62,175 nucleotides of DNA from Patescibacteria group bacterium (GCA_018821245.1 JAHJMO010000012.1:1-62175), one strand, 5' to 3'; shown: positions 34,736 to 50,919, counted from the stretch's first letter. The notes: generated from the letters alone by a model not told the origin. Numbers and translations are program-made.

Positions 34736-35260
34736 TCACAAATTTGCGCGCAGTGCTTCCGAATCCGGAAAGCGTTCCGCAAGCTCATGGATATCCCTGA
34801 CTGACAACTTCTGCATGACTTCTCTATCGGGGAATACCGGAACAGGCTTTTCTGTGTGTGATAGCTTGAGGGCGTCAAACTGTAATTGTCTTAAGTCTTT
34901 TACACTTATCTGCCCATCAGGTATTGGCGGAAACTCTACTTCGCAGCCTGCAGCGCAAGGACAATCCGTACAATGGATAGGTTGATTGAGTAAATTGTAG
35001 ATCGGTCCTAAATTAGCTGATCCGACAATACAATGGGTATCAGGCGCTTCTGGGTTAACACTTGTAATAAACACGTCATCCGGTCCCGTACGATGGATAA
35101 TTAACTCTCGCCCATCAACAGGACAATTAATTGTCCTTTGGCTATATACCTCTTGCTCTGCTGACATATGTTGTGAATTATAGCAAGTCCGGGCGGGATA
35201 ATCACATTTGAGGTTATCAAAATCAAAATATGAATAGACAAAAAGAGCGTGTTCTGGCAA
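34736..35260 (-). CDS. Cys-rich hypothetical protein (174 aa)
   Basis: ORF with a TTG start (next ATG at codon 32). Contains the cluster HCTDCPCAAGC. No named motif. Confidence 0.4.
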   Translation of the reverse strand: MPEHALFVYSYFDFDNLKCDYPARTCYNSQHMSAEQEVYSQRTINCPVDGRELIIHRTGPDDVFITSVNPEAPDTHCIVGSANLGPIYNLLNQPIHCTDCPCAAGCEVEFPPIPDGQISVKDLRQLQFDALKLSHTEKPVPVFPDREVMQKLSVRDIHELAERFPDSEALRANL

Positions 35261-35525
35261 TATATTTATAATATGAAGCCACCAGAAATAAAAAGAGATT
35301 ATAGTGATAATGAAGCCCGCTTTAAAGCGAGCGTGTCAATAACCTGGGGACCCGATATAATCCTTGATTTAACAAATAGATCATCCCCCAATGCCCAACG
35401 ACTGGCACGATTAAGAGATGAGAGATTAAATGGTGACAGATTATACACGTTAAGAAAACAAAGATTAGTGGTATAAGATATAGAGGTTCAGCTCAAATAT
35501 TAACGTGTTAACCAGATAATATGAA

Positions 35526-36461
35526 TTAACGAACCTGAAATTCGTTAATCCATTTGACGTAATCCGGTTTATCTAGTCCATTTGCTGAGGCCAATAAATC
35601 GCTCAGGTTTAAATGAAATCTCGATACTAACGTATCTACCGTATCCACCACCTCCAGAAATGGTATCCCGCTAGCTAAGGACAATTCTACACCTGCCCCT
35701 GCTACCGCCTGCCACATCAAGGTAGAAGATTGTGCCGCCGATCGCATGTAAACCCCAAACAACTGTTCTGCACCGTTTCCCTGTTCTGTTTGAGCAAGCC
35801 TACACCAATCCAACGCTGCTATTACTATTTCAGAAACATACTTTTTTCCATTACCATATTTTGTAATGAATAAATTTAATAATGCAAACAGCCTGTTTCC
35901 GTTTAGATCGTCTTTTATACTGTATATCTTACGATAATATTGGACCTCGTCTGGAGTCAGAAAAGTTACTTTCGGTGGTTTCTCCCAAAACCCGTCAGTC
36001 TCTTTCTCTTGCTTTTGTAAATCTATGTTTTCTTTCAGAAGGTACAACAGTTTACCACCTGCTTCTTTTCCGTTGCTGGTCAACCATTCCCCAATTACCC
36101 CGTTAATTACTTCTACATTGTCTTTCCCCTCCATTGCTAAAACTGCCGCCTTCCTTGAGAGCCGATCCAGAAAAAAACTCCCGGCGGCAACGTACATTCG
36201 ACTGGCTTCTGCGGGACTATGAGCTAACGTAGAGACGTAAGATTCATCTCCGTTTAAAAATCGCTCCATCAAGCTTCTTTTGATAAGAACATGACCTAGC
36301 TCAAGTGTATTACATCCGACTTGTGCACTTTCCAGATAATCAATCATGTCATTCAATAGCGGTAGCGCCGCCAAACCATCCGGCGTGGAGCACCCAGCAA
36401 AATTATAATGCCCTCTGTAGCCAGATTGCTGCAAAAAGTCTCTTGTTTCCATTAAACCCAT
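35526..36461 (-). CDS. Hypothetical protein (311 aa)
   Basis: ATG-initiated long ORF with its own upstream AT-rich region. No named motif. Confidence 0.55.
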   Translation of the reverse strand: MGLMETRDFLQQSGYRGHYNFAGCSTPDGLAALPLLNDMIDYLESAQVGCNTLELGHVLIKRSLMERFLNGDESYVSTLAHSPAEASRMYVAAGSFFLDRLSRKAAVLAMEGKDNVEVINGVIGEWLTSNGKEAGGKLLYLLKENIDLQKQEKETDGFWEKPPKVTFLTPDEVQYYRKIYSIKDDLNGNRLFALLNLFITKYGNGKKYVSEIVIAALDWCRLAQTEQGNGAEQLFGVYMRSAAQSSTLMWQAVAGAGVELSLASGIPFLEVVDTVDTLVSRFHLNLSDLLASANGLDKPDYVKWINEFQVR

Positions 36462-36581
36462 ATATCAGATATTAATTTATAGAAATAGCTAAGAACACAA
36501 TATTTTATATCTTATAGTCTATCACAAAAGGATATAATTTGCAAAGACTAAAGGCTCTTCCTGAATGCAAACTGGCAGGCT

Positions 36582-37769
36582 CTAGCCAAATATAGACTGC
36601 TCATCCGGAAGAGGACTAAATAAACGCCGGGAATCCTGTTGTAGTGCAGCGATTGCCGCCTGAAGCGCTCCCCGCTGCCCTGTCTGAATTCTCGAAAGAG
36701 CCATCCTCTGGGCATTAAGTCGTTCAATAATTGCCGCCACAGCTAAATCGTATAATCCCATAGCGCTGACGCGTATCCCTGTCAACCCCATATTGGCAAT
36801 CTCTGCTTGTTGAGCCAGTACGGTATGGATCATCTGTCTGGCGTTTACCAGAGACGGTGCGGCGCCGGTGATAAATTTAATCTGTCCGGTTCCGACAAGC
36901 AGATCCGGCAATACATCGTCCTGCACCCGCAACGCGTCAACGAGTTGACGCAAAATATCAGCGCTTGCAATGGATTGGCGGATTTCCTCTCCAATGTCAA
37001 GGCTGCCTATCGGCCTATTTGCCAAAGCATTTAGTCCTGCATCAATCGTGCTTTGGCTAGACATAAACACATTCCCCTGCCATAAAACATCCTGCAATAC
37101 CGATTCTATTTGTGCTAATTGCTCCTCGCCCTGACCCTGACTGCGCGCAAGAAGTTCTCGTATGGTTGCCTCCATTTGGCCGGCGCCGTAACCGGCCACC
37201 TCGGCCCAAAAATCAAGATATTCTAGAGCGGGCCGGTTGGCAGCAAGAACGTACCAAACCGGGTGTCCTTCTTCCGGATGACCAATGACTAACAGATTAT
37301 CCCGCACATCTTCTACCATCTGATTGAAGCGCTTCGCGTCTTTTCGTGACAGACCTTCATCCGCTTCCCAAGGCCGCCACGTGTGATCCAGCGCAGCCGG
37401 TAGAATGCCGGGGTGATCGCGAAGCCATGCCAAATCAATCCTGCCCAGCGCCTGGGCAAAATCATGCAGGGCACCTACGGCATAAATTTGCGCCTCCCCG
37501 TGGCTGCTTGCTTGAGCAATTACATAAGAAAGATAATTTTGCGCCTGCGCGTCCGGTTCCCAGCCCTGTTGTGGTATTAGAGGCAAATCTAAATCAGAAT
37601 CTAAAGACCGGATAAGATTATCTGCTCCATTACCTAAAGCATCTGTGACCGGAACCATGGCCTCCATTATCTTGCCTGCTGCCACATCCGGGGAAAGATC
37701 TGATAAACTTTCGTTTTCTTTTGGTCCTGGTGGTTGCATAGTAAAATTCTTCACTTCATTGCATGGCAA
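36582..37769 (-). CDS. Orphan operon gene 4 (395 aa; start TTG 37769 or ATG 37739)
   Basis: Long ORF abutting or overlapping the upstream gene. No named motif. Confidence 0.6.
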   Translation of the reverse strand: MPCNEVKNFTMQPPGPKENESLSDLSPDVAAGKIMEAMVPVTDALGNGADNLIRSLDSDLDLPLIPQQGWEPDAQAQNYLSYVIAQASSHGEAQIYAVGALHDFAQALGRIDLAWLRDHPGILPAALDHTWRPWEADEGLSRKDAKRFNQMVEDVRDNLLVIGHPEEGHPVWYVLAANRPALEYLDFWAEVAGYGAGQMEATIRELLARSQGQGEEQLAQIESVLQDVLWQGNVFMSSQSTIDAGLNALANRPIGSLDIGEEIRQSIASADILRQLVDALRVQDDVLPDLLVGTGQIKFITGAAPSLVNARQMIHTVLAQQAEIANMGLTGIRVSAMGLYDLAVAAIIERLNAQRMALSRIQTGQRGALQAAIAALQQDSRRLFSPLPDEQSIFG

Positions 37770-39075
37770 AATATCCCGATGAGTGAATAAATCGGTTAAC
37801 CTGGTCCCAGGAAATACTGGATAATGTGTTTACGCCTCTGCGCTGGGTTTCGAGCCCCAAAAACGCATGCCGGGCGCCAAATCCTATCGCCGCCATAGCT
37901 TCGGGAGATAAAATAATTTCTTTACCACGCTTTGCTTCTTCCATCTGCACCACTACCAGATGATTAAATGTGCTTCTTAATAATTCCTGAAGCAACCGCG
38001 CCTCTTCCAATCGGACTGCGACTGATTGTTGTAAACGCCCTGAAAGTCGAGCCAAACCCTGCCTATCGTCACGGGCAAGCCTGCCTTCCTGAAGCATCTT
38101 TTGCGTCAAAGCTGCGACCATCGCGTCGGACATCTTATCTGTTCCCATCCGAACTACCGCCCTCTGAGCACGATTATAATCTTCAATCGTTTTGGCCATA
38201 AAACAGGAAACTGGAGCGCCATCAGCGACATCCACCTGAATAAGTATCGGATCAACAACCGCTGCAGCTGCGGCGACATGGGCTGCTCCCGCGGCAATAT
38301 GCGCCGCTATGGCTGCCGCTCCTCCACCCAACCCCGCAATAAGACCACCTAAAACGGCCCTCCCGCGACTGGTCTTCGCAGATGGATCCGGATCTTTTCC
38401 ATGATCCGCCGCGAAAGGAGGCGAAAAAACAACCGCTGAATCTCTTGTCGGAACTGCCATAACCGGCGTCAACGTAACCCTCGCCCAGCCGTCTTCAAAG
38501 ACAACAGCGCCCTCTTGCCCCCGATGGATCGGCTGGATAGTAAACCGGTCCTGCGGAAGATTAAGGAGTTTACTTACCCCCCGTCTATCTACCCGTGCAG
38601 TCTTGCGGCCCGGAAGATCCTCGCCGATTAACAAAAATTCTGTTTGTGATTCCGGCTCTTCCTCTCCAAGCTCCGCGCCGGCACCGAAAACTTCATCTGT
38701 TTCTCTTCCTTCCCGATCCAATAAATAGTCTACCTGTGCTACTAATCTATCCCGCAGGGAATCTGCATCTGATTCTGGTAGTCTTGATGCCTGGATTTCA
38801 ATTTCAGGAAACTCTGCCTCTATAAGTCGAGGTACAGGTAAATTGTGAGCTGGCAAAGACGGTTCGTATAAACGAATTTGACCGAGGGTATCTTCCGCCG
38901 CATTATCCGGTAATAAAGGAGTGCCGTTGATCAAAATATTTCCTCCTCCCTCCCATAAGGCATCAGCAACCCCCCGAGGGGAATTCAATTGACCCAATAA
39001 CAAAGCCCAGACTGCACTAGACCAACCGGTTTCCTGCGCTGCTTCCCTTTTATTCCTTTCTCTGTAATCATTCAT
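37756..39075 (-). CDS. Orphan operon gene 3 (439 aa) with a Gly/Ala/His hydrophobic tract
   Basis: ATG preceded by AAGGAG. Contains GGLIAGLGGGAAAIAAHIAAGAAHVAAAAAVV. Confidence 0.65.
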   Translation of the reverse strand: MNDYRERNKREAAQETGWSSAVWALLLGQLNSPRGVADALWEGGGNILINGTPLLPDNAAEDTLGQIRLYEPSLPAHNLPVPRLIEAEFPEIEIQASRLPESDADSLRDRLVAQVDYLLDREGRETDEVFGAGAELGEEEPESQTEFLLIGEDLPGRKTARVDRRGVSKLLNLPQDRFTIQPIHRGQEGAVVFEDGWARVTLTPVMAVPTRDSAVVFSPPFAADHGKDPDPSAKTSRGRAVLGGLIAGLGGGAAAIAAHIAAGAAHVAAAAAVVDPILIQVDVADGAPVSCFMAKTIEDYNRAQRAVVRMGTDKMSDAMVAALTQKMLQEGRLARDDRQGLARLSGRLQQSVAVRLEEARLLQELLRSTFNHLVVVQMEEAKRGKEIILSPEAMAAIGFGARHAFLGLETQRRGVNTLSSISWDQVNRFIHSSGYFAMQ

Positions 39076-39084
39076 ATTCTCCTT

Positions 39085-40335
39085 TCATTGAGCAGGCTCC
39101 TGAGCTTCAATAAATCTCCCTACCGGCCGGTCCGTCGAAAGAAACTGTGCCGCCGGACAAAAATAATTTTCTTCTGCAAAGCGTACCAGAGCGGCAGGCA
39201 TACCTGTCATTGGAAAAAGCGCCATTCCAAAGGCTAATTGATTAGAGACGCGGGGCAATCGAGCTTCCTGCAATACGGCATAATTGCCCCAGACAATTTT
39301 TCCGGCCGCCCCGCATACTTCCTGCACGTTATCACGGAAATGTTTGTCAGCCCGGATAGCAGCCTGCTGAACTTCCCAGCCGATAGTCTGATTTCCGTTC
39401 CACCCCAATTCACGAAGCCGTACGCTTCGTTTTATGTCGCTTGCGCTCATCAAGACCAAAAGGTCAACCGGCTGCCCCAATTGCCATCTCCGTGTCAGTT
39501 CAGCCAACGTCACATTGACTGATTCTATTTGTTTGTCTTGAAAGATTGTGTAACGGCCATCCTGATGCCGTGTTTGAACCTGTCGGCTGGCAACAACCTG
39601 CTCTCTTTCAGTCTGAACTGTATGCTCCAATAAATCCGGACCGGAAAAAAAATCCGGCCGGAAATCACGCTCCAAACCAAGCATTGTTTCAAATACTGAT
39701 TGGAATAACCGACGGTAATCATCCGCTGCACCAGGAATATCCGCGAGGCCGGCAGGAAACATAACCGGCGGATCAAGCACGCGGCGTTCACTGAGTATGT
39801 GATCCCGGGCAACCATATGCGTCGTTCTAAGTGTTTTTTCTCCCACCGGCATCATGGCGGGTATACGGACAGTTAAGGCGCTGGGCAAATCCGGAACAAC
39901 GACGACATTCGTAATTTTTAACCGAGGCATCGTCCCCAATCGCATCGTTTCAGACAACTGAGCAACCCTATAGCGGTCACCGGAATAGGATGATACGCCG
40001 TACTGAAGTTGCGCCCTTTTTAAATCCGGGTCTAAAGCGCGCTCCTGACTCTGCACAGGAGCAGATTCTCCCTGCGTCCACGCCTCCCATAATTGCGAAG
40101 CTGACTGATCCACCAAATCCCTGTATGCACCCGAACACGTAAGCCAGTTTATTGTGCTAGCGGCAAGCTGTTCACCGCGCTGTCCAGCCAAATTTCTACA
40201 ATAGAGATTACCTTTCCTCCACTCAAAAAATGGCGAAGAAAACAAAAATTCCAACAACTCTCCAGAGCGATCTTCTTTCGGAACAACTGCCGGTCTTTCT
40301 GTTTCTATTCTTGCTGATTGAATTTGCATTCTCAT
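39085..40335 (-). CDS. Orphan operon gene 2 (416 aa)
   Basis: ATG preceded by an AGGAG that lies inside the tail of gene 1. No named motif. Confidence 0.65.
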   Translation of the reverse strand: MRMQIQSARIETERPAVVPKEDRSGELLEFLFSSPFFEWRKGNLYCRNLAGQRGEQLAASTINWLTCSGAYRDLVDQSASQLWEAWTQGESAPVQSQERALDPDLKRAQLQYGVSSYSGDRYRVAQLSETMRLGTMPRLKITNVVVVPDLPSALTVRIPAMMPVGEKTLRTTHMVARDHILSERRVLDPPVMFPAGLADIPGAADDYRRLFQSVFETMLGLERDFRPDFFSGPDLLEHTVQTEREQVVASRQVQTRHQDGRYTIFQDKQIESVNVTLAELTRRWQLGQPVDLLVLMSASDIKRSVRLRELGWNGNQTIGWEVQQAAIRADKHFRDNVQEVCGAAGKIVWGNYAVLQEARLPRVSNQLAFGMALFPMTGMPAALVRFAEENYFCPAAQFLSTDRPVGRFIEAQEPAQ

Positions 40336-40338
40336 ACT

Positions 40339-41208
40339 TTATCTCCTGTTCCGGGTATAACTGGTTCGTTCAACTCTTGTTCTCCGATTTTGCTCCTGCA
40401 ACTTCGCGCCGCGGCTTAACCTATGGCCTGCAACTGCCAACGCCTCCAAACCGCCTCTTGTTAAAACCGCTACACCGACCCCTATACCGATAGGGATTAG
40501 CGCAATTGCGCCGTAATAAATCCAGTCTGCTTCTGTCACTTTATGCTTCGGCCGGGGAGTGCTTTCGGCGGTCTGAACCGTAGCTTGTGCAATTACCGTC
40601 GATTCCGGGGTTAGCGTCGCTTCCGGCGTTGCTGTAACGACAATGACGATAGGCGTCGGCGGTTCTTCCCGGGTTGAAGTTGCCTGTGCTTGTATGGTTG
40701 ATTCCGGCACAACAACGGCCTCTATCTGCAAACCATTGACAGTAATCCCGTTAACGACAACTGTTGAATCCAGCCTGCTCGCCCAGACGTGCACCGCGTC
40801 GTCACGTTCACCACCGGACACACAGGCCCAACCGTCAAATCCGCTATCTCCGCCGATGTAGCCGGGAAGCTGGCGGTTGAAATGCATCCAGATTGCTTGC
40901 TGTAGTGCATCTACTGCCTGCGCGCCGAGCATACCCTGAAGCCACAGAATCATATTGCCTTTTGTATCTGCCAAAATCGGGTCTGTGCCCTCTGCCGCAC
41001 AATCTTTTAGACGGCCTTGATACGGGTCATCGTCGTTGCAGTCGCACATCGGCGGATTGCCGGGCGGCGGAGAATCTGCATCTCTTACGCCAAATCGTTC
41101 GTATTGCGACGCCGGAATCTTCCAGACTTCTGCCGGCTGAGAGCGCGCGGCAAGATCACGGGCAATACCCGGATCGAATATTGGTTGACTGTTCATTTCT
41201 ATTAACAT
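40339..41208 (-). CDS. Orphan operon gene 1 (289 aa), single-pass membrane protein
   Basis: Cys-containing N-terminal domain, Thr/Pro-rich linker, a TM segment (WIYYGAIALIPIGIGVGVAVL) and a basic tail. Confidence 0.6.
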   Translation of the reverse strand: MLIEMNSQPIFDPGIARDLAARSQPAEVWKIPASQYERFGVRDADSPPPGNPPMCDCNDDDPYQGRLKDCAAEGTDPILADTKGNMILWLQGMLGAQAVDALQQAIWMHFNRQLPGYIGGDSGFDGWACVSGGERDDAVHVWASRLDSTVVVNGITVNGLQIEAVVVPESTIQAQATSTREEPPTPIVIVVTATPEATLTPESTVIAQATVQTAESTPRPKHKVTEADWIYYGAIALIPIGIGVGVAVLTRGGLEALAVAGHRLSRGAKLQEQNRRTRVERTSYTRNRR

Positions 41209-41239: not shown

Positions 41240-41268
41240 ATTATAGGTTAAATTTACGCATCTGTCAA
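41240..41268 (-). promoter_or_regulatory. Consensus sigma70-type promoter TTGACA-17-TATAAT
   Basis: The minus strand has TTGACA (41268-41263), a 17-nt spacer and TATAAT (41245-41240), 31 nt upstream of the ATG at 41208. Confidence 0.7.
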
Positions 41269-41324
41269 TTTATATCGCGTGCTAATATTCTTTTTTTCTA
41301 TTTTTTGATAAATAAATTCTGACC

Positions 41325-41797: not shown

Positions 41798-41807
41798 TTA
41801 CCACTTA

Positions 41808-41837: not shown

Positions 41838-41866
41838 CAACTTACAACTTACAACTCTTTTCTCCC

Positions 41867-44642: not shown

Positions 44643-44697
44643 ATAACCAACATAATCTTGCTTCTTAAATACATGCTATACTACAATATCAATAGAC

Positions 44698-44991
44698 ATG
44701 AGCATTCAAACCATTATCACCTCACTTACACCGTATCATCCGCAAAAGATCATCCTTTTTGGTTCGCGCGTGCGCGGCGCCGCCGACTCTTCAAGCGATT
44801 ATGATATAGCAATTATTAAAGATACCGATGAACCTTATCATGATCGCGTAATTGCGGCGCGCAGACTCATACGCTCAACCACGCCGATTGACCTTTTTGT
44901 GTTTACAAGCAAAGAACTGAAAGAAAAAAAACTTACCAATCCGTTGGTTGCCGAGATCGTTTCATCCGGAAAGGTTGTCTATGAATCGTAA
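44698..44991 (+). CDS. Nucleotidyltransferase-domain protein (MNT-type antitoxin)
   Basis: ILFGSRVRGAADSSSDYDIAI (GS-x9-12-D-x-D). Confidence 0.8.
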   Translation: MSIQTIITSLTPYHPQKIILFGSRVRGAADSSSDYDIAIIKDTDEPYHDRVIAARRLIRSTTPIDLFVFTSKELKEKKLTNPLVAEIVSSGKVVYES

Positions 44992-45367
44992 AGTAATTGC
45001 CGCAAATTGGCTTGCGAAAGCCGCTGACGATCTTCGCTGGTGCCAAGCAAGCATCAGCGGAAATGTCTGGCACGGCGCTTGTTTTTCGGCACAGCAAGCG
45101 GCTGAAAAAGCACTCAAAGCGTTTCTTTATTCTCAGGGCAAACAACTACATAAAATCCATGATCTTTCAGCACTGCTAGAACAGTGCCGCACGATTGACA
45201 CATCGTTTGAAACTATCAGAGAACGCATACTGCCGCTTATCGATTACTACTTACAAACTCGCTACCCTGATATGGGTGATTTTATTGACTATACTAAGGA
45301 AAAAGCGCAACGCGCGCATGACGATGCTCGGATGATTGTCAACTTTGTTTCTTCACGGATCAAATAA
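44981..45367 (+). CDS. HEPN-domain protein (toxin partner of MNT)
   Basis: The ATG at 44981 overlaps the MNT stop. Contains AEKALKAFL, KIHDL and YLQTRYPD. Confidence 0.8.
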   Translation: MNRKVIAANWLAKAADDLRWCQASISGNVWHGACFSAQQAAEKALKAFLYSQGKQLHKIHDLSALLEQCRTIDTSFETIRERILPLIDYYLQTRYPDMGDFIDYTKEKAQRAHDDARMIVNFVSSRIK

Positions 45368-45507
45368 TTCTTTTCTGTTAGCTCTTTGAGCTCCATCAAT
45401 ATAACTTACAACTTACAACCTGTACTTCCAGTTTTTTTTCATCATACTAGAGTATTTTAAAGAGCTATAATTGCAGGCGTTGTGAAATTAGCGCTTTTGC
45501 CAACTTA

Positions 45508-45537
45508 TCCCGCAAAGCGGGATCTGGCTCTGCCAGA
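45508..45537. repeat. Variant double-hairpin element
   Basis: tcccgcaaagcggga tctggctctgccaga, preceded by ccaacttat and followed by caacctacaac. The word aacttacaacttacaacc lies at 45403-45420. Confidence 0.8.
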
Positions 45538-45650
45538 CAACCTACAACTATTTCGGCATGTGGAATGCCCGTTTTCCGGTGTCTATAAAAACACCAGAAG
45601 CTTACGCTTAAATAAAGTTAAACGCAAACTTCCGGCGCAGGCTTTTTTAT

Positions 45651-46580
45651 TTATTCCGTCCACCATTTGCCTCCTCTTTTGGAAGCATTGCCTATTGCCT
45701 CTCTAACCTGCATGCCGTATATGTCATCCGAATCAATATGTCCGTGAAGAACTTGGCTTTTAACACCATAAAATGTACTCCGACCACGTTTGCCTTCAAC
45801 TATAACCGTCTGGAAACTCTGCTCCGGCATCTGTACGATCACCGGCGGCTCGCGCTGAAATTCAGCATGCACAGTACTTGGTCCTCTTTCAAAAGACACC
45901 TCTTCTCCTTCTCTGCTCCGAGCGCCCCACCGGAATCCTCCATCATGTTGGGTAATTTTCCCGCTGGTAATCGTCGGATCTAAATACATCGCGTTCAAAG
46001 CCTGAAAAAGCGCCGCCAGCTGCGACCTCTGTTCGGCCACAACCAGAAGCGACTGGGCAAAGCCAGCCCGCAGCGCGAGATGCGCCTCGTCATCCGGCAT
46101 GCCGAGATACTGCATTATTTCCAAAATCTTCCTTCTATCGAAATGGGTATCCTCATACGCAAACGGCATAAGCCCGTCCTGCGTCCGGTGGTTTAAGCGC
46201 ATAAGCATAATGTATAATTGTTTATCTTCGGGACTTATATGCGGCTGAATAGCCAACCGGTCGCGGCCAACCGGAATTGCCGGGGCAATCGGCATGAGGG
46301 TTTCAACTTCCGGCGGCAGTACCTCTGAGTCAGTAACAATCGGCGCCCCCGCGACCATATCACCATCCGGCTGATCGACGTTGACCAGACTTCGTGGCGG
46401 AACAAGAATTTGGGGGTTCGCTGTAGGATTTTGAACAAATCTGTCCGGATCGATATTCTTCAAATGATCAATCGGCGCAAGAATCCGCCGAACGAAATCG
46501 GCAATCTCTCTATCTGACGGCGGCCCTTCTTTAAATACCATAATGTATGATAAACTGGGCAGATGGCTTAATATGGGCAA
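45651..46580 (-). CDS. Hypothetical protein (309 aa; start TTG 46580 or ATG 46541)
   Basis: Long ORF 17 nt downstream of the 760-aa gene. No named motif. Confidence 0.5.
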   Translation of the reverse strand: MPILSHLPSLSYIMVFKEGPPSDREIADFVRRILAPIDHLKNIDPDRFVQNPTANPQILVPPRSLVNVDQPDGDMVAGAPIVTDSEVLPPEVETLMPIAPAIPVGRDRLAIQPHISPEDKQLYIMLMRLNHRTQDGLMPFAYEDTHFDRRKILEIMQYLGMPDDEAHLALRAGFAQSLLVVAEQRSQLAALFQALNAMYLDPTITSGKITQHDGGFRWGARSREGEEVSFERGPSTVHAEFQREPPVIVQMPEQSFQTVIVEGKRGRSTFYGVKSQVLHGHIDSDDIYGMQVREAIGNASKRGGKWWTE

Positions 46581-46597
46581 GGAACGCTATTATACTC

Positions 46598-48880
46598 CTA
46601 TAGGTCAACATTTCCCAACATTTTCATCCAGACGCTTGCCGCCTCCCGCGCTTTGCCCAACTTTTCCCAAACAATCAGCTCATCCCAATAGCAGGTTCCG
46701 ACAGTGTGCAAAGCAAAAAGTTCATCGGGAGCCACTTTCATCGCCAGAAACACCTGTGTTTTTTCCCCCTCTTTTTTGGTGATAAACTTCGGCTGGCACC
46801 GTTCTTTAATGCCGCCAACCAACCCGTCTAATTCCGGAAATATCTTCATGGGATTTCTTTGCAATACCAACTGCATGGCCTCCAAATATTTTTGGATATC
46901 GGAATCAGAAGCGAAATCCGCGTCTGCTGCCAAGGTGCTGGGCAGTTCAATCACAAGCCCTATTCCGTCGCCCGCCGGGTCGTAAAACAAAACAATCGGA
47001 AATTGCCGTTCAATACCGTTAAACGCTACCCCCGCCTGTACTTTCTCAAATACTCCAGCTCCGCCCGCGTCGATCCGTATCCCGCCCTGGGGAATATCAA
47101 AACGGAAATCCGGAGCCCATAGATTCTCCCCGAACGTTTGCGCCAGCCACGGCTGGGTAACCGGAGAGGTCGCACGCATCCGGCGCGCGTCTTCTTCCAG
47201 CTCCCGACCGAAGTAATGATAAAACTGTTCCAAACACCCGGCCATCTTTTTGGCAATTTTATTTACAGCGCGTACTTTATCACCTGATATCCAATCGTTA
47301 ACGATAATTTCGTCGGTAACGATTTCCCCGCTTTCGCTATCCACCTCTACCGCCGTAAAAAATATTCCCTGCTGCCCGCCACGCATGTCTACTCCGCGGT
47401 CTTGCGGGACGATCCGAAGCATGCGATTTCCCCGTCGGGCGATGATATCGCTTCGCTGGTGGCCCTGCCGACTGCAAAAAGCATCCCAAAGTTTGGCAAT
47501 AGTTTCTGTGTCCAGCTTACCAAGCTCCGGCAGTTCAATCATGGGGCCAAAATGAGCGCCGGCTCGTACTTTCCACAATCCATCTTTTGCAGCGGGATCG
47601 TCTTCGGCAGCCAAAGTCATGCTCATCCAGCGAGAGGTGTCTTCTCCTATTGATAATGTAAGCAAATCCATGCCATCATCCAGCTTGTCTGCGGTAGATA
47701 GTTCTCCAAAAGATCCGGACAGCAAAATCCGGTATGTTTGAAAATTATTAAGCAACCCGATGCGCATCGCCATCTGCAGACGCGTAAAGTTCTCCGTGAG
47801 CATTTCCCGCGAGGATGAGAGAAAATCCACGGCCTTGTCAAAATAATCATACACTCTGACCCCGCCGGGCAGAGGCTCGCCATTCTCATCTGTTTCCGCT
47901 ATCCGCAGGCGCATGTCACCTCCGCCGTTATCCGCCCCCCGGCCGGCAAACACGATTGCCAGTTTCCGGCCGCGTTTGGCGCGGACCTGATCTACCCGGA
48001 ACTGCCCTGATAATTCCAACTGTCTGTTAACCTCCTGCCACCAGTTGTTCAATTCGTCTATGGGAAGATATGCCAAATCACTCCGCGAAAAGGCTTGAGG
48101 CAATAGTATCTGGGCATCGCAAACGAGAGATCCCTGCCGCTCTTCCAAATTCAGTGTCATCTTCCGAACACCGCCTGCCTCAACTGCTTCTTCCCAAACG
48201 AGAATGTCGCCAAAATCATCCGTCTCTTTTTGTACGTTTTGATTTTCAAGCATTGCCAAAAGCGCGTATGTTTCCGGCGCTCTCACCGAACCGACCTGGA
48301 CTAAATCAGCTAATCGCTCTGCCGCCTGCACGATTTGCTCCCGTAAAACCGGGTAGAAACTCTCCGGCTGTCTAAAGTACAGTGCCGGGCAAAAAGACGC
48401 ACTGCTTTCTCTCACCGCCAAAAAATATTTCTCGGGGGAAGGAGGTGTCGCTGTCTTGCCGCGGGCTAAAGCAAGATCCAGGATTTTGGCTGCACCCGTC
48501 TCCAATCTGTCGGCCCGTCTATACCCAAGTTCACGCTCCAGCGTTTGATTAAACGTATGCCACAGCGCGTTTAGCTTGGCAACCGGTAATTCCAGCAGAG
48601 AGCTCTCCGCCATGATCTGGCTCGCGTCCAACCGCATACCTGCCCGCTCTGCCCCTGTTACTTCTTCCATACTGATTGTCGTTCGCAAAGTACGGCCAAT
48701 CTGCCGGTCGCCAACCGTCATACTGATTGTTTCCTGCAGGATGTCCCTGTCTCCTTTTGCCCAACATCCGACTGCTTCTCCGCCACTCAATAAGCCGTTT
48801 AGGATTGCCCTCGTGAGTTCGTATTGCGGCTGAACCGAAGCGTCTTGTTCCCGTTTTTCTATTTCCCTTGTAATTGTCAT
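46598..48880 (-). CDS. Large hypothetical protein (760 aa) built from 3 internal repeats of ~190 aa
   Basis: Recurrent block LELPVAKLNALWHTF...GYRRADRLETGAAKILDLAL / YLPIDELNNWWQEV...GQFRVDQVRAKRGRKLAIVF / ELPELGKLDTETIAKLWDAF...GHQRSDIIARRGNRMLRIV. Confidence 0.65.
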   Translation of the reverse strand: MTITREIEKREQDASVQPQYELTRAILNGLLSGGEAVGCWAKGDRDILQETISMTVGDRQIGRTLRTTISMEEVTGAERAGMRLDASQIMAESSLLELPVAKLNALWHTFNQTLERELGYRRADRLETGAAKILDLALARGKTATPPSPEKYFLAVRESSASFCPALYFRQPESFYPVLREQIVQAAERLADLVQVGSVRAPETYALLAMLENQNVQKETDDFGDILVWEEAVEAGGVRKMTLNLEERQGSLVCDAQILLPQAFSRSDLAYLPIDELNNWWQEVNRQLELSGQFRVDQVRAKRGRKLAIVFAGRGADNGGGDMRLRIAETDENGEPLPGGVRVYDYFDKAVDFLSSSREMLTENFTRLQMAMRIGLLNNFQTYRILLSGSFGELSTADKLDDGMDLLTLSIGEDTSRWMSMTLAAEDDPAAKDGLWKVRAGAHFGPMIELPELGKLDTETIAKLWDAFCSRQGHQRSDIIARRGNRMLRIVPQDRGVDMRGGQQGIFFTAVEVDSESGEIVTDEIIVNDWISGDKVRAVNKIAKKMAGCLEQFYHYFGRELEEDARRMRATSPVTQPWLAQTFGENLWAPDFRFDIPQGGIRIDAGGAGVFEKVQAGVAFNGIERQFPIVLFYDPAGDGIGLVIELPSTLAADADFASDSDIQKYLEAMQLVLQRNPMKIFPELDGLVGGIKERCQPKFITKKEGEKTQVFLAMKVAPDELFALHTVGTCYWDELIVWEKLGKAREAASVWMKMLGNVDL

Positions 48881-49190: not shown

Positions 49191-49877
49191 ATGTCCACAC
49201 TACATTTCCCCCCAAACCGAAAGACCGGCAATTTGCTGACCCGGGTTCCCATTAGCCGGGGGCTTGCCTGGGGAATAATCATCCTCTGCGCGCTGGTGGC
49301 CTTTGAGATTTTCAATTTCAGCACAACACAGTTTGCCCTGCTGGACGTGTTTGGCAATTTGTCCTTTGCCGGAATGCGTTGGGCGACAATCCTTGCGATT
49401 GCGTTCTGCGGGATTGATTTTGCCGGTATTGCCCGCCTGTTCACCCCCCAACAGGGTCGGGACGAACCGGCCGAGGTCTGGTACCTTTTCGGAGCCTGGC
49501 TATTGGCCGCTGGGATGAACGCCTGCCTGACTTGGTGGGGCGTATCGGTGGCCATGGCGCAGCGGGAGACCGCTTCGCAGATGTTATCTGCAAGCGTAAT
49601 CTCGCCAGCAACCTTGAAGTTTGTGCCTGTTTTCGTGGCGATCATGGTCTGGCTGATCCGCGTCCTGATCATCGGCACCTTCTCGATTGCCGGTGAGAGC
49701 CTGTTTAGTTCGGCAGGTGATCGCGTCCGCTCGCAGGTTCGCCCGGCTCCCCAGCCCGTCGCTTCGTCGCTGCGCCCGCGGCCAGCCGTCAATCCGATCA
49801 CATCGGCCTACCGGCCAGCACAGAATGTCGCCCGGCCCACGGATGATAACGCCCCTTTCGGGGACCACCCTTCCTAA
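49191..49877 (+). CDS. Hypothetical 4-TM membrane protein with a Pro-rich tail
   Basis: AAGGAGG lies 6 nt before the ATG. Four hydrophobic helices. GC-rich. Confidence 0.65.
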   Translation: MSTLHFPPNRKTGNLLTRVPISRGLAWGIIILCALVAFEIFNFSTTQFALLDVFGNLSFAGMRWATILAIAFCGIDFAGIARLFTPQQGRDEPAEVWYLFGAWLLAAGMNACLTWWGVSVAMAQRETASQMLSASVISPATLKFVPVFVAIMVWLIRVLIIGTFSIAGESLFSSAGDRVRSQVRPAPQPVASSLRPRPAVNPITSAYRPAQNVARPTDDNAPFGDHPS

Positions 49878-49883
49878 CCGTCC

Positions 49884-49952
49884 GGTGAGGCATGCATGGT
49901 TGTCTGCCTGGCAGACGACGTCACTCCCCATGCATGCCTCACCCCAGTTTTT
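49884..49952 (+). terminator. Strong rho-independent terminator
   Basis: 16-bp arms ggtgaggcatgcatgg / ccatgcatgcctcacc with an inner hairpin gtctgcc-tg-ggcagac, then ccagttttt. Confidence 0.7.
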
Positions 49953-49994
49953 CCCGCTCACACCTATTCTGACTTTTTGGTATACTACGGGCAT

Positions 49995-50327
49995 ATGATC
50001 TCCACTCATCCTCCGGCATCTCTCCAAGGCTCGCTGTGGTCAGTGAAAGTTCAACAGTTGGATATTCAAAAAGACAAATGGTATATCATTCATCAACTCC
50101 TTAACTATGGAACCATAAAGGAACTCCAATGGTTATTCGCGACCTATTCAAAAAAAGAAATTGTTGCCACATTCGTTGAGCAACCTGCAAAAATGTACTT
50201 CAAGCAAACATATGTATTTGTAAAAAATTATCTCTTATCACTTTCTCAAATCGACTTAGATACAGACGCCTATGTCACATCTATTTCTGGACCAGTTCGA
50301 CAGCGCACGGCAAGCAGTATTTCCTAA
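49995..50327 (+). CDS. Putative antitoxin partner of the AbiEii-like gene (110 aa)
   Basis: The ATG at 49995 lies 8 nt after a TGgTATACT extended -10. Overlaps the downstream toxin gene. Confidence 0.5.
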   Translation: MISTHPPASLQGSLWSVKVQQLDIQKDKWYIIHQLLNYGTIKELQWLFATYSKKEIVATFVEQPAKMYFKQTYVFVKNYLLSLSQIDLDTDAYVTSISGPVRQRTASSIS

Positions 50328-50919
50328 ACTTGCTGCGTTTGCCCCAACCTTTACGCTTGCCGGCGGTACGGCAATCATGCTCCAAATTGGTCATCGGCAA
50401 TCATACGATTTTGATTGTTTTTGCTTAGAACCGCTGACAGATACCATACGGAAAAAAATGATGACACTCTTTGGCAAAGATACAACAATACGATTTGACA
50501 CTCCTGATGTCTTTTCCGTAATCACTCCAGAGTTGGTCGAGGTTACACTCGTTTCTTATCCGTATCCGCCTCTTAGACCGACAATCCCAACACGCTCTAT
50601 CTCTCTTTTTCACATGGATGATCTTATTGCAAGCAAAGCGCACACACTTGGTCGCCGGAATGCATGGCGGGATTATGTAGATTTATTTTTCGTCATCAAA
50701 TGGAATCTCTATACGATACAATCGATCATAACGCTAGCCGAACAAAAGTACAGTAATGAGTTTAACGCACGACTATTTTTAGGACAATTGACCTATTTCG
50801 ATGATATCAAAATCATGGAAACAACGTTTCTCAAAGAATCGTATACTCCAAACGAAATCCAAACAGTTCTTAGTGACGCCGTACAAATCTATTTAAAACA
50901 AATCATTCCACGGTCATAA
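50272..50919 (+). CDS. AbiEii/AbiGii-family nucleotidyltransferase toxin (DUF1814-like)
   Basis: FTLAGGTAIMLQIGHRQSYDFDCF and the rest of the family pattern. Confidence 0.75.
   Translation: MSHLFLDQFDSARQAVFPKLAAFAPTFTLAGGTAIMLQIGHRQSYDFDCFCLEPLTDTIRKKMMTLFGKDTTIRFDTPDVFSVITPELVEVTLVSYPYPPLRPTIPTRSISLFHMDDLIASKAHTLGRRNAWRDYVDLFFVIKWNLYTIQSIITLAEQKYSNEFNARLFLGQLTYFDDIKIMETTFLKESYTPNEIQTVLSDAVQIYLKQIIPRS

What the first reader, a model, noticed from the sequence alone, without database searches (positions are those of the whole stretch)
34736..50919. 16-kb mosaic accessory island: orphan gene blocks alternating with three toxin-antitoxin modules
The order along the window is as follows:
- orphan genes (34736-41552, minus strand)
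- RelB/RelE (41904-42458)
- an 84-aa plus 507-aa membrane pair (42860-44642, minus strand)
- MNT/HEPN (44698-45367)
- a 309-aa plus 760-aa pair (45651-48880, minus strand)
- a 4-TM protein (49191-49877)
- an AbiEii-type pair (49995-50919)

The orphan blocks are visibly more GC-rich than the flanking housekeeping DNA. An extreme example is 43/60 G+C at 43921-43980. The TA modules and spacers are AT-rich and full of word repeats.

Clustering of TA and abortive-infection-type modules with unknown genes is the classic signature of defence islands. That is established knowledge from guilt-by-association studies. No integrase, transposase or phage structural gene is visible.
Basis: partly seen in the sequence, partly recalled or inferred. 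Interest (0 to 1): 0.65.

Follow-up and report, generated by a model that had tools for sequence, protein, structure and literature searches.

The report
Accessory island at mreB–Wzy hotspot
In this tiny Gottesmanbacteria (CPR) genome, 23 kb of accessory DNA fills a gap between two core operons that are direct neighbours in most relatives; it holds a rare set of unknown-function genes with mobile toxin-antitoxin cassettes in the spacers between them, and nothing shows that the unknown genes are phage-defence genes.

Summary
Gene order and coordinates are right. Pfam confirms the three pairs (RelB/YafQ, MNT/HEPN, DUF6922/AbiEii). Twelve ORFs match nothing in Pfam, NCBIfam, PADLOC or PHROGs. Orphan blocks are GC-rich (95th-99.7th percentile) and spacers AT-rich.

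- In 48 of 80 Gottesmanbacteria/Microgenomates loci, mreB and a Wzy_C-TPR gene are divergent neighbours 49 bp to 8.6 kb apart. Here 23.4 kb separates them. The island is therefore 27534-50928, larger than reported.
- The orphans are not a random mosaic. One other lineage (Logan SRR22388093) carries them in the same order at the same hotspot, at 39-76% aa identity, under purifying selection.
- They are otherwise absent: 0 of 80 family species and 0 of 400 class genomes.
- Their amino-acid usage is atypical (Fisher p = 2.5e-8).
- Some have unsaturated synonymous divergence while core genes are saturated, which points to exchange between lineages.
- The TA cassettes are the variable part. They are bracketed by ACAACYT heptad arrays, replaced by other small genes in the sister lineage, and sit elsewhere in the hotspot in other genomes.

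No orphan matches a known defence family, enzymatic motif, phage protein or solved structure. AlphaFold2 models failed. "Defence island" remains guilt by association.

The parts
26472..27533 (-). mreB, the left core flank of the hotspot (first gene of the mreB, 199-aa, PBP2 operon)
   Evidence: Pfam MreB_Mbl, 445 bits. It is the divergent neighbour of the Wzy_C-TPR gene in 13 of 15 and 48 of 80 relatives' loci.
27512..28516 (.). Copy A of a roughly 1-kb direct duplication. It includes the first bases of mreB and its upstream region.
   Evidence: the repeat finder families D1, D2, D6 and D9-D11. blastn gives 83-95% identity to copy B.
28625..29413 (-). PaaX-like protein (262 aa) with a Cas2-like middle domain
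   Evidence: Pfam PaaX_M and PaaX_C. Weak PADLOC Cas2 hits.
29465..32182 (+). dprA2, comM and yraN (UPF0102) cassette, one module of the island
   Evidence: Pfam DNA_processg_A, Mg_chelatase/ChlI and UPF0102. The same cassette lies in the hotspot of L099 at 77%, 88% and 68% aa identity, although Wzy is only 49% identical there.
32301..33190 (.). Copy B of the duplication, carrying a 5' fragment of mreB
   Evidence: Copies A and B bracket PaaX262, dprA2, comM and yraN.
33754..34539 (-). Second PaaX-like protein (261 aa)
   Evidence: Pfam PaaX_M and PaaX_C.
34736..35260 (-). Orphan o174, Cys-containing with a CxxC motif
   Evidence: No family hit. It shows 25% identity to a 133-aa ORF of L052 that lies at a different position, and the CxxC is shared.
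35526..36461 (-). Orphan o311
   Evidence: No family hit. Its ortholog in L052 is 41% identical and collinear. A 41-nt upstream element (36504-36544) is 95% conserved.
36582..41208 (-). Four-gene orphan operon in the order o289 (40339-41208, 1 TM and a Thr/Pro-rich linker), o416 (39085-40335), o439 (37756-39075, Gly/Ala-rich hydrophobic segment), o395 (36582-37769). Gaps between genes are 3 and 9 nt, and the last two genes overlap by 14 nt.
   Evidence: ORF spacing. Orthologs in L052 at 44%, 39%, 58% and 76% identity in the same order. pN/pS is 0.33-0.58, and pS is 0.39-0.47 for o395 and o439 against 0.78-0.81 for core genes. Amino-acid usage is at the 0.1-2nd percentile for FYMINK content. 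o439 occurs in 1 of 401 class genomes, and o416 finds only itself among 5.8 billion clusters in a word-indexed search. TM segments.
41240..41268 (-). Consensus sigma-70-type promoter (TTGACA, 17 nt, TATAAT; 12 of 12) in front of o289
   Evidence: The segment 41194-41274 is 89% identical in L052.
41275..42697 (.). Variable segment replaced in the sister lineage. It contains o78 (41325-41561, doubtful gene), heptad arrays and a palindrome (41721-41852), relB (41904-42182,+), yafQ (42189-42458,+), and a second palindrome with heptads (42506-42614).
   Evidence: Nucleotide anchors on both sides are conserved in L052, but the interior is replaced there by a sub-threshold HicB-like gene plus 50-aa and 133-aa ORFs. 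73-nt direct repeats at 41735-41807 and 42538-42610 are 97% identical. Heptad statistics. Pfam RelB and YafQ. An 11-of-12 promoter lies at 41867-41895.
42860..44383 (-). Orphan o507: a soluble N-terminal domain, a Pro/Arg-rich GC-rich linker, and a C-terminal domain with at least 7 TM segments
   Evidence: Homolog P0006 in L052 is 72% identical over residues 167-505. A distant homolog (30%) lies in the hotspot of L066. About 160 nt after the stop codon (42698-42859) is also conserved.
44388..44642 (-). The '84-aa ORF', more likely a conserved 5' leader of o507 than a gene
   Evidence: The DNA is 79% identical in L052, but the reading frame is broken there by frameshifts.
44629..45549 (+). MNT/HEPN cassette: MNT (44698-44991), HEPN (44948-45367), a flanking 27-nt inverted repeat (44629-44655 and 45373-45399), heptads (45401-45423) and a palindrome copy (45503-45549)
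   Evidence: Pfam. Repeats. MNT has the GSx10DxD motif; HEPN has no Rx4-6H. In L050/L052 this spacer holds a 23S_rRNA_IVP-family gene instead.
45651..48880 (-). o760 (46598-48880; internal repeats of about 165 aa) followed by o309 (45651-46580), ending at a strong terminator-like hairpin (45591-45638)
   Evidence: Internal repeat z = 10.4 for units 1 and 2 and z = 3.9 for units 2 and 3. The o760 family has only 3 members among 1.84 billion representatives. P0001 is 68% identical with dN/dS 0.23. P0004 is 27% identical and again lies near a Wzy_C-TPR gene. The family is in 0 of 80 family species. o309 has no ortholog found and does not follow o760 in L002. Terminator.
49191..49877 (+). Orphan o228, a membrane protein with 3 to 4 TM segments and the highest GC (59.5%, GC3 69%)
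   Evidence: Its ortholog in L002 is 66% identical with dN/dS 0.13 and equally high GC3.
49896..50919 (+). DUF6922 and AbiEii pair (genes overlap by 56 nt), ending 9 nt before the Wzy_C-TPR start codon
   Evidence: Pfam. Weak PADLOC AbiEii hits. The same pair occupies the same position in L002 (56% and 51% identity), L089 (62%, 52%) and L099 (73%, 80%, although Wzy there is only 49%). Five weak AbiEii paralogs lie elsewhere in the genome.
50929..53220 (+). Wzy_C (O-antigen-ligase-like) plus TPR gene, the right core flank, followed by def and fmt
   Evidence: Pfam. Present in 40 of 41 family genomes.

Best explanation
The reported segment is the larger part of a 23.4-kb accessory island (window 27534-50928). 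The island has accumulated in one recombination hotspot: the divergent intergenic region between the cell-wall elongation operon (mreB, a 199-aa gene, PBP2) and the Wzy_C-TPR, def, fmt operon of a Candidatus Gottesmanbacteria genome (CPR, 1.08 Mb). It is built of independently distributed modules.

1. A PaaX-like gene plus a dprA2, comM, yraN cassette, bracketed by a 1-kb direct duplication of the mreB-proximal DNA.
2. A backbone of about ten lineage-restricted genes with no known domain: o311 and o174; the translationally coupled o289-o416-o439-o395 operon behind a consensus promoter; o507 with a conserved leader; o760 with o309; and o228.
3. Three small TA cassettes (RelB/YafQ, MNT/HEPN, DUF6922/AbiEii) lodged in the AT-rich spacers between backbone operons.

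Shown:
- The hotspot exists, and the true borders are mreB and Wzy.
- The backbone is collinear in one other lineage and under purifying selection.
- Its amino-acid usage is atypical, and several of its genes have sub-saturated synonymous divergence.
- The small genes in the spacers differ between the two lineages.
- The same TA families occupy other positions of the same hotspot in other genomes.

Inferred:
- The backbone came long ago from a GC-richer donor.
- It has since been passed between Gottesmanbacteria lineages by DNA uptake and homologous recombination through the conserved flanks. No integrase is needed. The 1-kb duplication is the footprint expected of a Campbell-type single crossover.
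- The TA cassettes are selfish add-ons that insert or swap at ACAACYT heptad-array junctions. They probably stabilise the island against deletion, and the AbiE-type pair may also act in abortive infection.
- The backbone most likely encodes a non-enzymatic, membrane-associated protein assembly of the cell envelope, because 4 of its roughly 10 proteins have TM or hydrophobic segments. It is less likely to be an immune system.
For: Hotspot:
- tblastn of the window's proteins on 15 family loci shows mreB and Wzy divergent-adjacent with gaps of 67 bp to 7.4 kb, and at least 13.8 kb in one.
- In 80 further loci, 48 have mreB 49 bp to 8.6 kb upstream of Wzy, and the tightest gaps are in the most distant genomes.
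- Cargo differs between genera and is mostly Pfam-less.

Backbone:
- L002 and L052 (Logan SRR22388093) are collinear with the window and abut mreB and Wzy.
- dN/dS is 0.13-0.38.
- pS is 0.39-0.62 for o395, o439, o760 and o507, against 0.78-0.81 for mreB, PBP2 and GT4.
- K/(K+R) is below 0.30 in 7 of 10 orphans against 29 of 779 other genes, p = 2.5e-8.
- The families are absent from 80 family species and 400 class genomes, and o760 has 3 members among 1.84 billion representatives.

TA mobility:
- Conserved nucleotide anchors flank a swapped interior.
- Heptad arrays give 12 hits against 0.05 expected, only at cassette flanks and inside fmt. The same arrays sit beside other TA-like cassettes on C17/C33 and at the relative's contig ends.
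- RelB/YafQ plus HicA lie next to Wzy in L120, and a HEPN gene in L054.
- AbiEii is 80% identical in L099 where Wzy is 49%.

Recombination footprint: the duplication 27512-28516 / 32301-33190.

No mobility gene, tRNA or Rfam element lies at the borders.

Not an assembly artefact: an independent assembly (L004) is 100% identical over 8.9 kb, and the proteins are seen on 4 contigs up to 76 kb.
Against: - Only one sister lineage with readable DNA is available, so 'conserved backbone, variable TA' rests on a two-genome comparison plus scattered third-party loci.
- Low pS could partly reflect constraints on synonymous sites and not recent exchange.
- The GC-richer donor is hypothetical; no donor homolog was found anywhere.
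- Heptad arrays also occur inside coding genes (lepA, fmt), so they are a general repeat vocabulary and need not be cassette-specific recombination sites.
- Relatives do carry an IS200-type Y1 transposase (L052) and an rve integrase (P0004 contig) in the hotspot, so transposase-mediated events cannot be excluded.
- The function of the backbone is unsupported by any homology or usable structure model (pLDDT 44 and 33).
Confidence: 0.6

Rival explanations
1. It is a functional defence island. The orphan operons are new anti-phage systems that co-localise with TA/Abi modules.
For: Three TA/Abi-type modules lie within 9 kb. AbiEii and the candidate family PDC-S09 are recognised by PADLOC. The hotspot has variable cargo. 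The orphans evolve fairly fast, with dN/dS 0.2-0.4. They are patchily distributed.
Against: No orphan hits any of 5027 PADLOC models. None has a conserved NTPase, nuclease, protease or other catalytic motif in both lineages. Such motifs are found in nearly all known defence systems (my background knowledge). The TA cassettes are independently mobile, and the sister lineage has different small genes next to the same orphans, so the association is positional and not with specific partners. TA modules accumulate in any permissive intergenic site, including between PBP2 and GT4 in L052. The HEPN protein lacks Rx4-6H.
Confidence: 0.15
2. It is a vertically inherited, clade-specific core region. The orphan backbone arose in, or was acquired once by, the ancestor of a small Gottesmanbacteria clade and has not moved since. 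It only looks like an island because other genera lack it.
For: The backbone is collinear and sits at the same place next to the same core genes in the sister lineage. Amino-acid identities (39-76%) fall in the range of core genes (44-82%). GC3 of the four-gene operon is ordinary, so it is ameliorated.
Against: pS of o395, o439 and o760 (0.39-0.53) is far below the saturated core genes (0.78-0.81), and pS varies along the operon. The o760 and o507 families appear singly in other lineages' hotspots without the rest of the backbone. Cargo and core identities are discordant in L099. Amino-acid usage is atypical.
Confidence: 0.15
3. It is the remnant of an integrated mobile element (a CPR prophage, or an integrative or conjugative element). 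Its structural genes are too divergent to recognise, and the TA modules are its addiction systems.
For: The composition is foreign. The location is a hotspot. Relatives' hotspot cargo includes SLT and DPBB lytic transglycosylases, a Y1 transposase and an rve integrase. All genes of the backbone are unknown.
Against: No PHROGs hit for any orphan. No tblastn hit in 50,697 phage records. No relative in IMG/VR. There is no terminase-like Walker A motif or any integrase in the window. No att-like direct repeats lie at the outer borders. The genes are kept under purifying selection in two lineages.
Confidence: 0.08

Closest known systems
Chromosomal hotspots of horizontal gene transfer flanked by core genes (concept of Oliveira, Touchon and Rocha 2017, from memory), and genomic islands reported in Patescibacteria (PMC12455944)
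   Same: A single interval between two conserved core genes accumulates different accessory cargo in different lineages. Many such hotspots lack integrases and are thought to be filled by homologous recombination through the flanks. Patescibacteria are reported to carry hundreds of genomic islands, making up as much as 13% of genome length.
   Different: This specific mreB | Wzy_C-TPR hotspot in Gottesmanbacteria was not found described in my two literature searches. Nearly all of its cargo consists of protein families with no homolog outside two or three lineages.
Defence islands (guilt-by-association concept; Makarova 2011 and Doron 2018, from memory)
   Same: TA and Abi-type modules cluster with unknown genes in a variable region.
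   Different: Only one recognised Abi-type toxin is present, and no RM, CRISPR or other established system. The unknown genes lack enzymatic domains. They are more conserved in position than the TA modules beside them.
TA cassettes in chromosomal integron arrays, such as Vibrio superintegrons, where TA genes stabilise cassette arrays (from memory)
   Same: Small promoter-bearing TA cassettes are bracketed by short repeats or palindromes, are interspersed among unknown genes, and differ between related genomes. A stabilising, anti-deletion role is plausible.
   Different: No integron integrase is present. The bracketing repeats are ACAACYT heptad arrays plus a GC hairpin, not attC sites, although this was not tested with an attC model. 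The unknown genes are large operons and not promoterless cassettes.
AbiE (AbiEi/AbiEii type IV TA and abortive infection), MNT-HEPN pairs, and RelB/RelE-YafQ type II TA
   Same: Toxin domains score above the Pfam cut-offs. The two-gene architecture is as expected: the smaller upstream gene (the presumed antitoxin) comes first and the genes are tightly coupled or overlapping.
   Different: The AbiEii partner is a DUF6922 protein, not a recognised AbiEi. The HEPN protein lacks the Rx4-6H motif and belongs to PF05168, not the HepT/DUF86 type.

Membership tests
Genomic island at a core-flanked insertion hotspot | The flanking core genes are adjacent in related genomes | tested here: met
   mreB and Wzy_C-TPR are divergent neighbours in 13 of 15 and 48 of 80 relatives' loci, with gaps of 49 bp to 8.6 kb against 23.4 kb here.
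Genomic island at a core-flanked insertion hotspot | Cargo is patchily distributed among relatives | tested here: met
   o760 occurs in 0 of 80 family species and o439 in 0 of 400 class genomes. Different cargo fills each genus's gap. Modules are shared discordantly with L099, L089, L120 and L066.
Genomic island at a core-flanked insertion hotspot | Composition is atypical relative to the host genome | tested here: met
   GC is at the 95th-99.7th percentile for orphan blocks, while tetranucleotide deviation is only at the 85th-97th. Amino-acid usage is extreme, Fisher p = 2.5e-8. GC3 of the four-gene operon is ordinary, and mreB is equally GC-rich.
Genomic island at a core-flanked insertion hotspot | Mobility genes, or a tRNA or att site, at the borders | tested here: not met
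   No integrase or transposase domain, no tRNA and no Rfam element lies in 26-52 kb. There is only an internal 1-kb duplication. Relatives have Y1_Tnp and rve genes in the hotspot.
Defence island | At least two established defence systems are clustered | tested here: inconclusive
   PADLOC gives weak AbiEii hits (best E = 1e-6) and the candidate family PDC-S09 for the MNT, and nothing for RelB, YafQ or HEPN.
Defence island | The neighbouring unknown genes belong to known or candidate defence families, or carry typical effector or sensor domains | tested here: not met
   No PADLOC hit at E <= 0.1 for 10 orphans. No conserved Walker A, nuclease or protease motif. No Pfam hit for the orphans or their orthologs.
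Defence island | Anti-phage activity | not testable with these tools
   This needs phage challenge of a laboratory host expressing the genes.
RelB/RelE-YafQ type II TA | Antitoxin and toxin domains above the curated cut-offs, antitoxin gene first, tightly linked | tested here: met
   RelB scores 28.3 against 22.4 and YafQ_toxin 38.5 against 30. The genes are 6 nt apart. An 11-of-12 promoter lies directly upstream.
MNT/HEPN TA | Minimal nucleotidyltransferase with a GSx(n)DxD motif | tested here: met
   Polbeta 43.7 bits. GSRVRGAADSSSDYD at residue 22.
MNT/HEPN TA | HEPN RNase motif Rx4-6H | tested here: not met
   The HEPN domain scores 90.5 bits, but no Rx4-6H motif is present in the 139-aa protein.
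AbiE (type IV TA / abortive infection) | AbiEii (DUF1814) nucleotidyltransferase toxin | tested here: met
   PF08843 scores 44.7 bits against 22.5. A GG...DxD stretch lies at residue 31.
AbiE (type IV TA / abortive infection) | AbiEi antitoxin / transcriptional regulator encoded upstream | tested here: not met
   The upstream overlapping gene hits only DUF6922 (42.4 bits) and no AbiEi family.
Integron or CALIN cassette array | attC sites and/or an IntI integrase | not tested
   No integrase domain is present in the window. The flanking repeats were not compared with an attC model, and Rfam at gathering thresholds found nothing.
Prophage or integrative element | Recognisable capsid, portal, terminase, integrase or relaxase genes | tested here: not met
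   PHROGs gave none, phage tblastn none and IMG/VR none.

The most novel reading that the evidence does not exclude
The Pfam-less backbone (the o289-o416-o439-o395 operon, o507, o760/o309, o228, o311/o174) is one coherent, previously undescribed membrane-associated multi-protein system. It would be either a new kind of immunity or an episymbiont envelope or host-contact apparatus. It travels between Gottesmanbacteria lineages as a unit through the mreB/Wzy hotspot. The ACAACYT heptad arrays are the recombination sites of a new, integrase-independent cassette-exchange mechanism for TA genes.
Probability: 0.2. Interest if true: 0.75.

Novelty: new member of a known kind. Interest (0 to 1): 0.42.

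Why it matters
CPR/Patescibacteria genomes are tiny and thought to be streamlined, yet this one devotes about 2% of its DNA to one hotspot. That hotspot is filled with genes that have no relatives outside two or three uncultured lineages.

The analysis yields three things:
- A concrete, comparable locus for studying how accessory DNA enters and turns over in CPR bacteria without integrases: the hotspot between mreB and Wzy_C-TPR across Gottesmanbacteria.
- A short list of about ten conserved, selected protein families of unknown function that are candidates for envelope or host-interaction roles.
- An example of TA cassettes that are exchanged at short heptad-repeat junctions.

It also cautions against reading 'TA genes next to orphans' as a defence island. 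Here the TA genes are the transient part and the orphans the stable part.

Tried and rejected
Homology searches for the orphans, all negative:
- Pfam, NCBIfam, PADLOC and PHROGs, including the orthologs from the sister lineage.
- PDB sequence and profile searches for o439, o760 and o416. The only hit was a chance match at E = 0.85.
- tblastn against 50,697 phage records.
- IMG/VR scans, two JGI metagenome scans and a GTDB genome scan for o760.

Structure: AlphaFold2 with shallow alignments gave mean pLDDT 43.7 for o760 and 33.0 for o416. I ran no fold search because such models give meaningless matches.

Remote homology between the window's orphans and the Pfam-less cargo in other genera's hotspots: phmmer, pair-profile hmmsearch and hhalign found only a marginal o309 to L039 315-aa similarity (24% identity, pairwise E = 0.001). 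I do not rely on it.

Paralogs of the orphans in the same genome: none.

DNA of the P0004 contig (JGI 3300075153) could not be fetched.

Ideas considered and rejected:
- GC content alone marks recent transfer. Rejected because GC3 of the operon is ordinary, the orthologs share the bias, and mreB is equally GC-rich.
- Assembly chimera. Rejected because an independent assembly is identical and both flanks are syntenic with relatives.
- The GC hairpin CCCGCAAAGCGGG is cassette-specific. Rejected because it has 19 copies genome-wide and looks like a terminator.

Full report
WHAT WAS CHECKED

The window is contig C14 of a 1.08-Mb genome that is 97% complete and split into 33 contigs. Record titles of the closest relatives place it in Candidatus Gottesmanbacteria (Microgenomates, CPR/Patescibacteria).

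Pfam confirms the three two-gene modules above the curated cut-offs:
- RelB and YafQ_toxin at 41904-42458.
- Minimal nucleotidyltransferase and HEPN at 44698-45367.
- DUF6922 and AbiEii at 49896-50919.

The other twelve ORFs (174, 311, 395, 439, 416, 289, 78, 507, 84, 309, 760 and 228 aa) have no significant match in Pfam, NCBIfam, PADLOC or PHROGs.

The flanks are housekeeping genes. On the left are dprA, a GT4 glycosyltransferase, PBP2, a 199-aa gene and mreB. On the right are a Wzy_C (O-antigen-ligase-like) plus TPR protein, def, fmt and an M50 peptidase.

COMPOSITION

The genome is 45.4% GC with a 1-kb SD of 3.9%.
- The reported segment is 48.1% GC, the 97th percentile of 16-kb windows.
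- The orphan blocks are 51-59.5% GC, the 95th-99.7th percentile of 2-kb windows.
- Tetranucleotide deviation is only at the 85th-97th percentile.
- The '43 of 60' example is exact and in the top 0.1% of 60-mers.
- Spacers are 29-40% GC.

- For the four-gene operon the excess GC is in codon positions 1 and 2. GC3 is at the 26th-45th percentile for o395, o439 and o416, and only o289 is higher, at the 78th.
- o507, o228 and o760 do have high GC3. Their orthologs in another lineage share it, and the neighbouring core gene mreB is equally GC-rich (53.6% GC, GC3 at the 95th percentile).

The stronger signal is amino-acid usage. The orphans are Gly/Ala/Arg/Pro-rich and poor in Lys and other AT-codon residues. 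Seven of the ten orphans of at least 150 aa have K/(K+R) below 0.30, against 29 of 779 other long ORFs in the genome (Fisher p = 2.5e-8).

THE REGION IS AN INSERTION HOTSPOT, AND THE ISLAND IS LARGER THAN REPORTED

The Wzy_C-TPR gene is a core gene of the family, present in 40 of 41 genomes. I fetched its surroundings in 15 family relatives and laid the window's proteins on them.
- In 13 relatives mreB and Wzy_C-TPR are divergent neighbours separated by 67 bp to 7.4 kb.
- In one relative the gap is at least 13.8 kb.
- In one relative mreB is not within 14 kb.

Eighty further loci give the same picture.
- 48 have mreB 49 bp to 8.6 kb upstream of Wzy.
- 10 have more than 10 kb without mreB.
- 21 are cut by contig ends, and in one mreB lies elsewhere.
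- The tightest gaps (about 50-200 bp) are in the most distant genomes, so direct adjacency is probably ancestral.

In the window, 23.4 kb separates the two genes. The accessory region is therefore 27534-50928. Besides the reported genes it contains two PaaX-like genes and a dprA2, comM, yraN (UPF0102) cassette.

That cassette is bracketed by a 1-kb direct duplication, 27512-28516 and 32301-33190, at 83-95% identity. The duplication includes the first bases of mreB. This is the footprint expected if a circular DNA carrying mreB-proximal homology integrated by a single crossover. That reading is an inference.

There is no integrase, transposase, tRNA or Rfam element anywhere in 26-52 kb.

THE ORPHANS ARE REAL, RARE AND A CONSERVED BACKBONE

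The orphans have no paralogs in the genome. Their distribution is very narrow.
- An exhaustive HMMER profile search of 1.84 billion representative proteins found three members of the o760 family: P0001 (68% identical), a truncated or frameshifted copy of o760 itself (P0003), and P0004 (27% identical).
- The o760 family is in none of the other 80 species (35 genera) of the family.
- o439 is in none of 400 genomes (294 genera) sampled across the class.
- In a word-indexed search of 5.8 billion clusters, o416 found only itself. That search missed its 39%-identical ortholog in L052.

P0001 and the o507 homolog P0006 both come from one Logan sample, SRR22388093. That organism's contigs are collinear with the window.
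- L002 reads o760 (67%), o228 (66%), DUF6922 (56%), AbiEii (51%), Wzy_C-TPR (58%).
- L052 reads leader/o507 (72%), a variable segment, o289 (44%), o416 (39%), o439 (58%), o395 (76%), extra genes, o311 (41%), a 268-aa gene, a Y1 transposase, then mreB (82%), PBP2 (57%), GT4 (44%) and dprA (65%).

The same orphan set therefore sits in the same order at the same hotspot in a second lineage that is roughly as diverged as other genera of the family. The genes are under purifying selection: dN/dS is 0.13 for o228, 0.21-0.25 for o507, o760 and o395, and 0.38 for o439.

It shows that the orphan blocks are not a random mosaic.

THE BACKBONE HAS NEVERTHELESS MOVED

Several observations show movement.
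- Synonymous differences are saturated for the core genes mreB, PBP2 and GT4 (pS 0.78-0.81). They are clearly unsaturated for o395 (0.39), o439 (0.47), o760 (0.53) and o507 (0.62). The adjacent o416 (0.73) and o311 (0.78) are near saturation. The simplest reading is that parts of the backbone were exchanged between the two lineages after they split, with breakpoints inside the operon.
- P0004 lies on a 132-kb JGI contig 7.7 kb from a Wzy_C-TPR gene in the same relative orientation. It is surrounded by other Pfam-less genes, an SLT lytic transglycosylase and an rve-family gene.
- A 30%-identical o507 homolog lies in the hotspot of L066.
- L099's hotspot reads mreB | dprA2, comM, yraN, two ORFs, DUF6922, AbiEii | Wzy. 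That is the window's arrangement without the backbone. Its cargo is 68-88% identical to the window, while PBP2, Wzy and fmt are only 61%, 49% and 42% identical.

The island is thus modular, and the modules have separate histories.

THE TA CASSETTES ARE THE VARIABLE ELEMENT

A nucleotide alignment of the window against L052 shows conserved anchors on both sides of a replaced interior.
- One anchor is the 3' end of o507 plus about 160 nt. The other is the o289 promoter region at 89% identity.
- In the window the interior is 41275-42697 and holds RelB/YafQ with all its repeats and the doubtful o78.
- In L052 the interior is 2147-3899 and holds a sub-threshold HicB-like gene and two other small ORFs.

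Other spacers differ as well.
- The spacer holding MNT/HEPN in the window holds a 23S_rRNA_IVP-family gene in L050/L052.
- L052 has extra small genes between o395 and o311.
- L052 has a Phd/PIN pair between PBP2 and GT4.

Other Gottesmanbacteria carry the same TA families at other positions of the hotspot.
- L120 has HicA plus RelB/YafQ immediately upstream of Wzy.
- L054 has a HEPN gene there.
- L089, L099 and L100 carry the DUF6922/AbiEii pair; in L089 and L099 it directly abuts Wzy, and in L100 it is inverted about 1.5 kb upstream.

Repeats bracket the window's cassettes.
- RelB/YafQ is bracketed by 73-nt direct repeats (97% identical) and a GC palindrome.
- MNT/HEPN is bracketed by a 27-nt inverted repeat.
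- ACAACYT heptad arrays occur 12 times in the window against 0.05 expected. They lie only at both flanks of RelB/YafQ, just after HEPN, and inside fmt.
- Elsewhere in the genome the arrays sit between other NTase-type TA-like cassettes (C17/C33). They also occur inside lepA and another ORF.
- The sister lineage's contigs end in the same arrays.
- The GC hairpin is a genome-wide terminator-like motif with 19 copies.

I infer, without proof, that these short repeats are the junctions at which small cassettes are gained and swapped.

FAMILY MEMBERSHIP OF THE TA MODULES

- RelB/YafQ meets the domain and architecture criteria.
- The MNT has the GSx10DxD motif, but the HEPN protein (PF05168) has no Rx4-6H motif. 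RNase activity is therefore doubtful, and it is not a HepT/DUF86-type toxin.
- AbiEii is a clear domain hit, but its partner is a DUF6922 protein and not a recognised AbiEi.
- PADLOC recognises only AbiEii (weakly) and the candidate family PDC-S09 for the MNT.

WHAT THE BACKBONE DOES

This remains unknown. What can be said is limited.
- The four-gene operon sits behind a 12-of-12 consensus promoter. Its genes are 3 and 9 nt apart, and the last two overlap by 14 nt. This suggests co-translated partners.
- o289 has a Thr/Pro-rich linker, one TM helix and a basic tail. o439 has a Gly/Ala-rich hydrophobic segment. o507 has at least 7 TM segments after a Pro/Arg-rich linker. o228 has 3 to 4.
- The soluble members are acidic, lack signal peptides, and share no catalytic motif across lineages.
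- o760 contains internal repeats of about 165 aa (z = 10.4 for units 1 and 2, z = 3.9 for units 2 and 3).
- The 84-aa ORF is not conserved as a reading frame although its DNA is 79% identical. It is better read as a leader of o507.
- PDB sequence searches, phage tblastn and IMG/VR found nothing.
- AlphaFold2 models were unusable, at pLDDT 43.7 and 33.0.

My best guess is a non-enzymatic, membrane-associated assembly of the cell envelope. I rank a new immune system second and a degraded mobile element third.

VERDICT

'Accessory island' is supported, but with different borders and a different internal logic: a stable orphan backbone that is exchanged between lineages, with transient TA cassettes in its spacers. 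'Defence island' remains guilt by association and is, if anything, weakened.

Genomic islands are already documented in Patescibacteria (PMC12455944), and core-flanked hotspots with TA cassettes are a known kind. I therefore file this as a new member of a known kind, of moderate interest. What is new and usable is the hotspot itself, the list of selected orphan families, and the heptad-flanked cassettes.

Noticed in passing
window 44388-44642 (-): The 84-aa ORF upstream of o507 is 79% identical at DNA level in the sister lineage, but its frame is broken there by frameshifts. It is probably a conserved 5' leader or regulatory RNA and not a protein.
   Followed up: partly
window 42698-42859: About 160 nt downstream of the o507 stop codon is conserved in L052. 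On the + strand both lineages can encode the peptide FWQDAxIANNKVSTLIKNFSSN. This may be a small convergent gene or a 3' element.
   Followed up: no
window 36504-36544: A 41-nt element upstream of o311 is 95% identical in L052, where it instead precedes an extra 248-aa gene inserted before o311.
   Followed up: no
window 54738-54767 (fmt); genome C10:5089-5167 (lepA); C13:46811-46836: The same ACAACYT heptad arrays that flank the TA cassettes also occur in frame inside housekeeping genes (fmt, lepA, a 995-aa ORF). The repeat vocabulary appears to invade coding sequence.
   Followed up: partly
genome C17:7900-11120 and C33:1-42590: A second cluster of TA-like cassettes lies beside a single 13,941-aa ORF. 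It comprises an AbiEii-like gene, a further ORF (248 aa) that resembles a nucleotidyltransferase by eye (no family search run), and an MNT plus HEPN/DUF86-like pair, separated by heptad arrays. The end of contig C17 and the start of C33 share the same sequence and probably join.
   Followed up: no
P0003 (variant of window 46598-48880): A 326-aa protein in the public collection is identical to o760 up to about residue 317 and then frameshifted. It is either a frameshift allele in another sample or an assembly error.
   Followed up: no
window 27512-28516 and 32301-33190: A 1-kb direct duplication (83-95% identical) includes the 5' end of mreB and brackets PaaX262, dprA2, comM and yraN. In L099 the same cassette lies directly next to mreB without the duplication.
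   Followed up: partly
L052:17220-17888: The sister lineage has a Phd/PIN (VapBC-type) pair inserted between PBP2 and the GT4 gene, inside the otherwise conserved cell-wall operon.
   Followed up: no
L039, L046 and the P0004 contig (hotspots of other genera): Other genera's hotspot cargo also consists of runs of Pfam-less genes of similar sizes, and includes lytic transglycosylases (DPBB, SLT) and, in L040, a DsbD/thioredoxin protein. This hints that envelope-related accessory genes collect here.
   Followed up: partly
record titles of L056-L133: Many MAG records that are clearly Gottesmanbacteria/Microgenomates by gene content and synteny are titled 'uncultured Gammaproteobacteria' or 'Bathyarchaeia archaeon' in the public records.
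   Followed up: no
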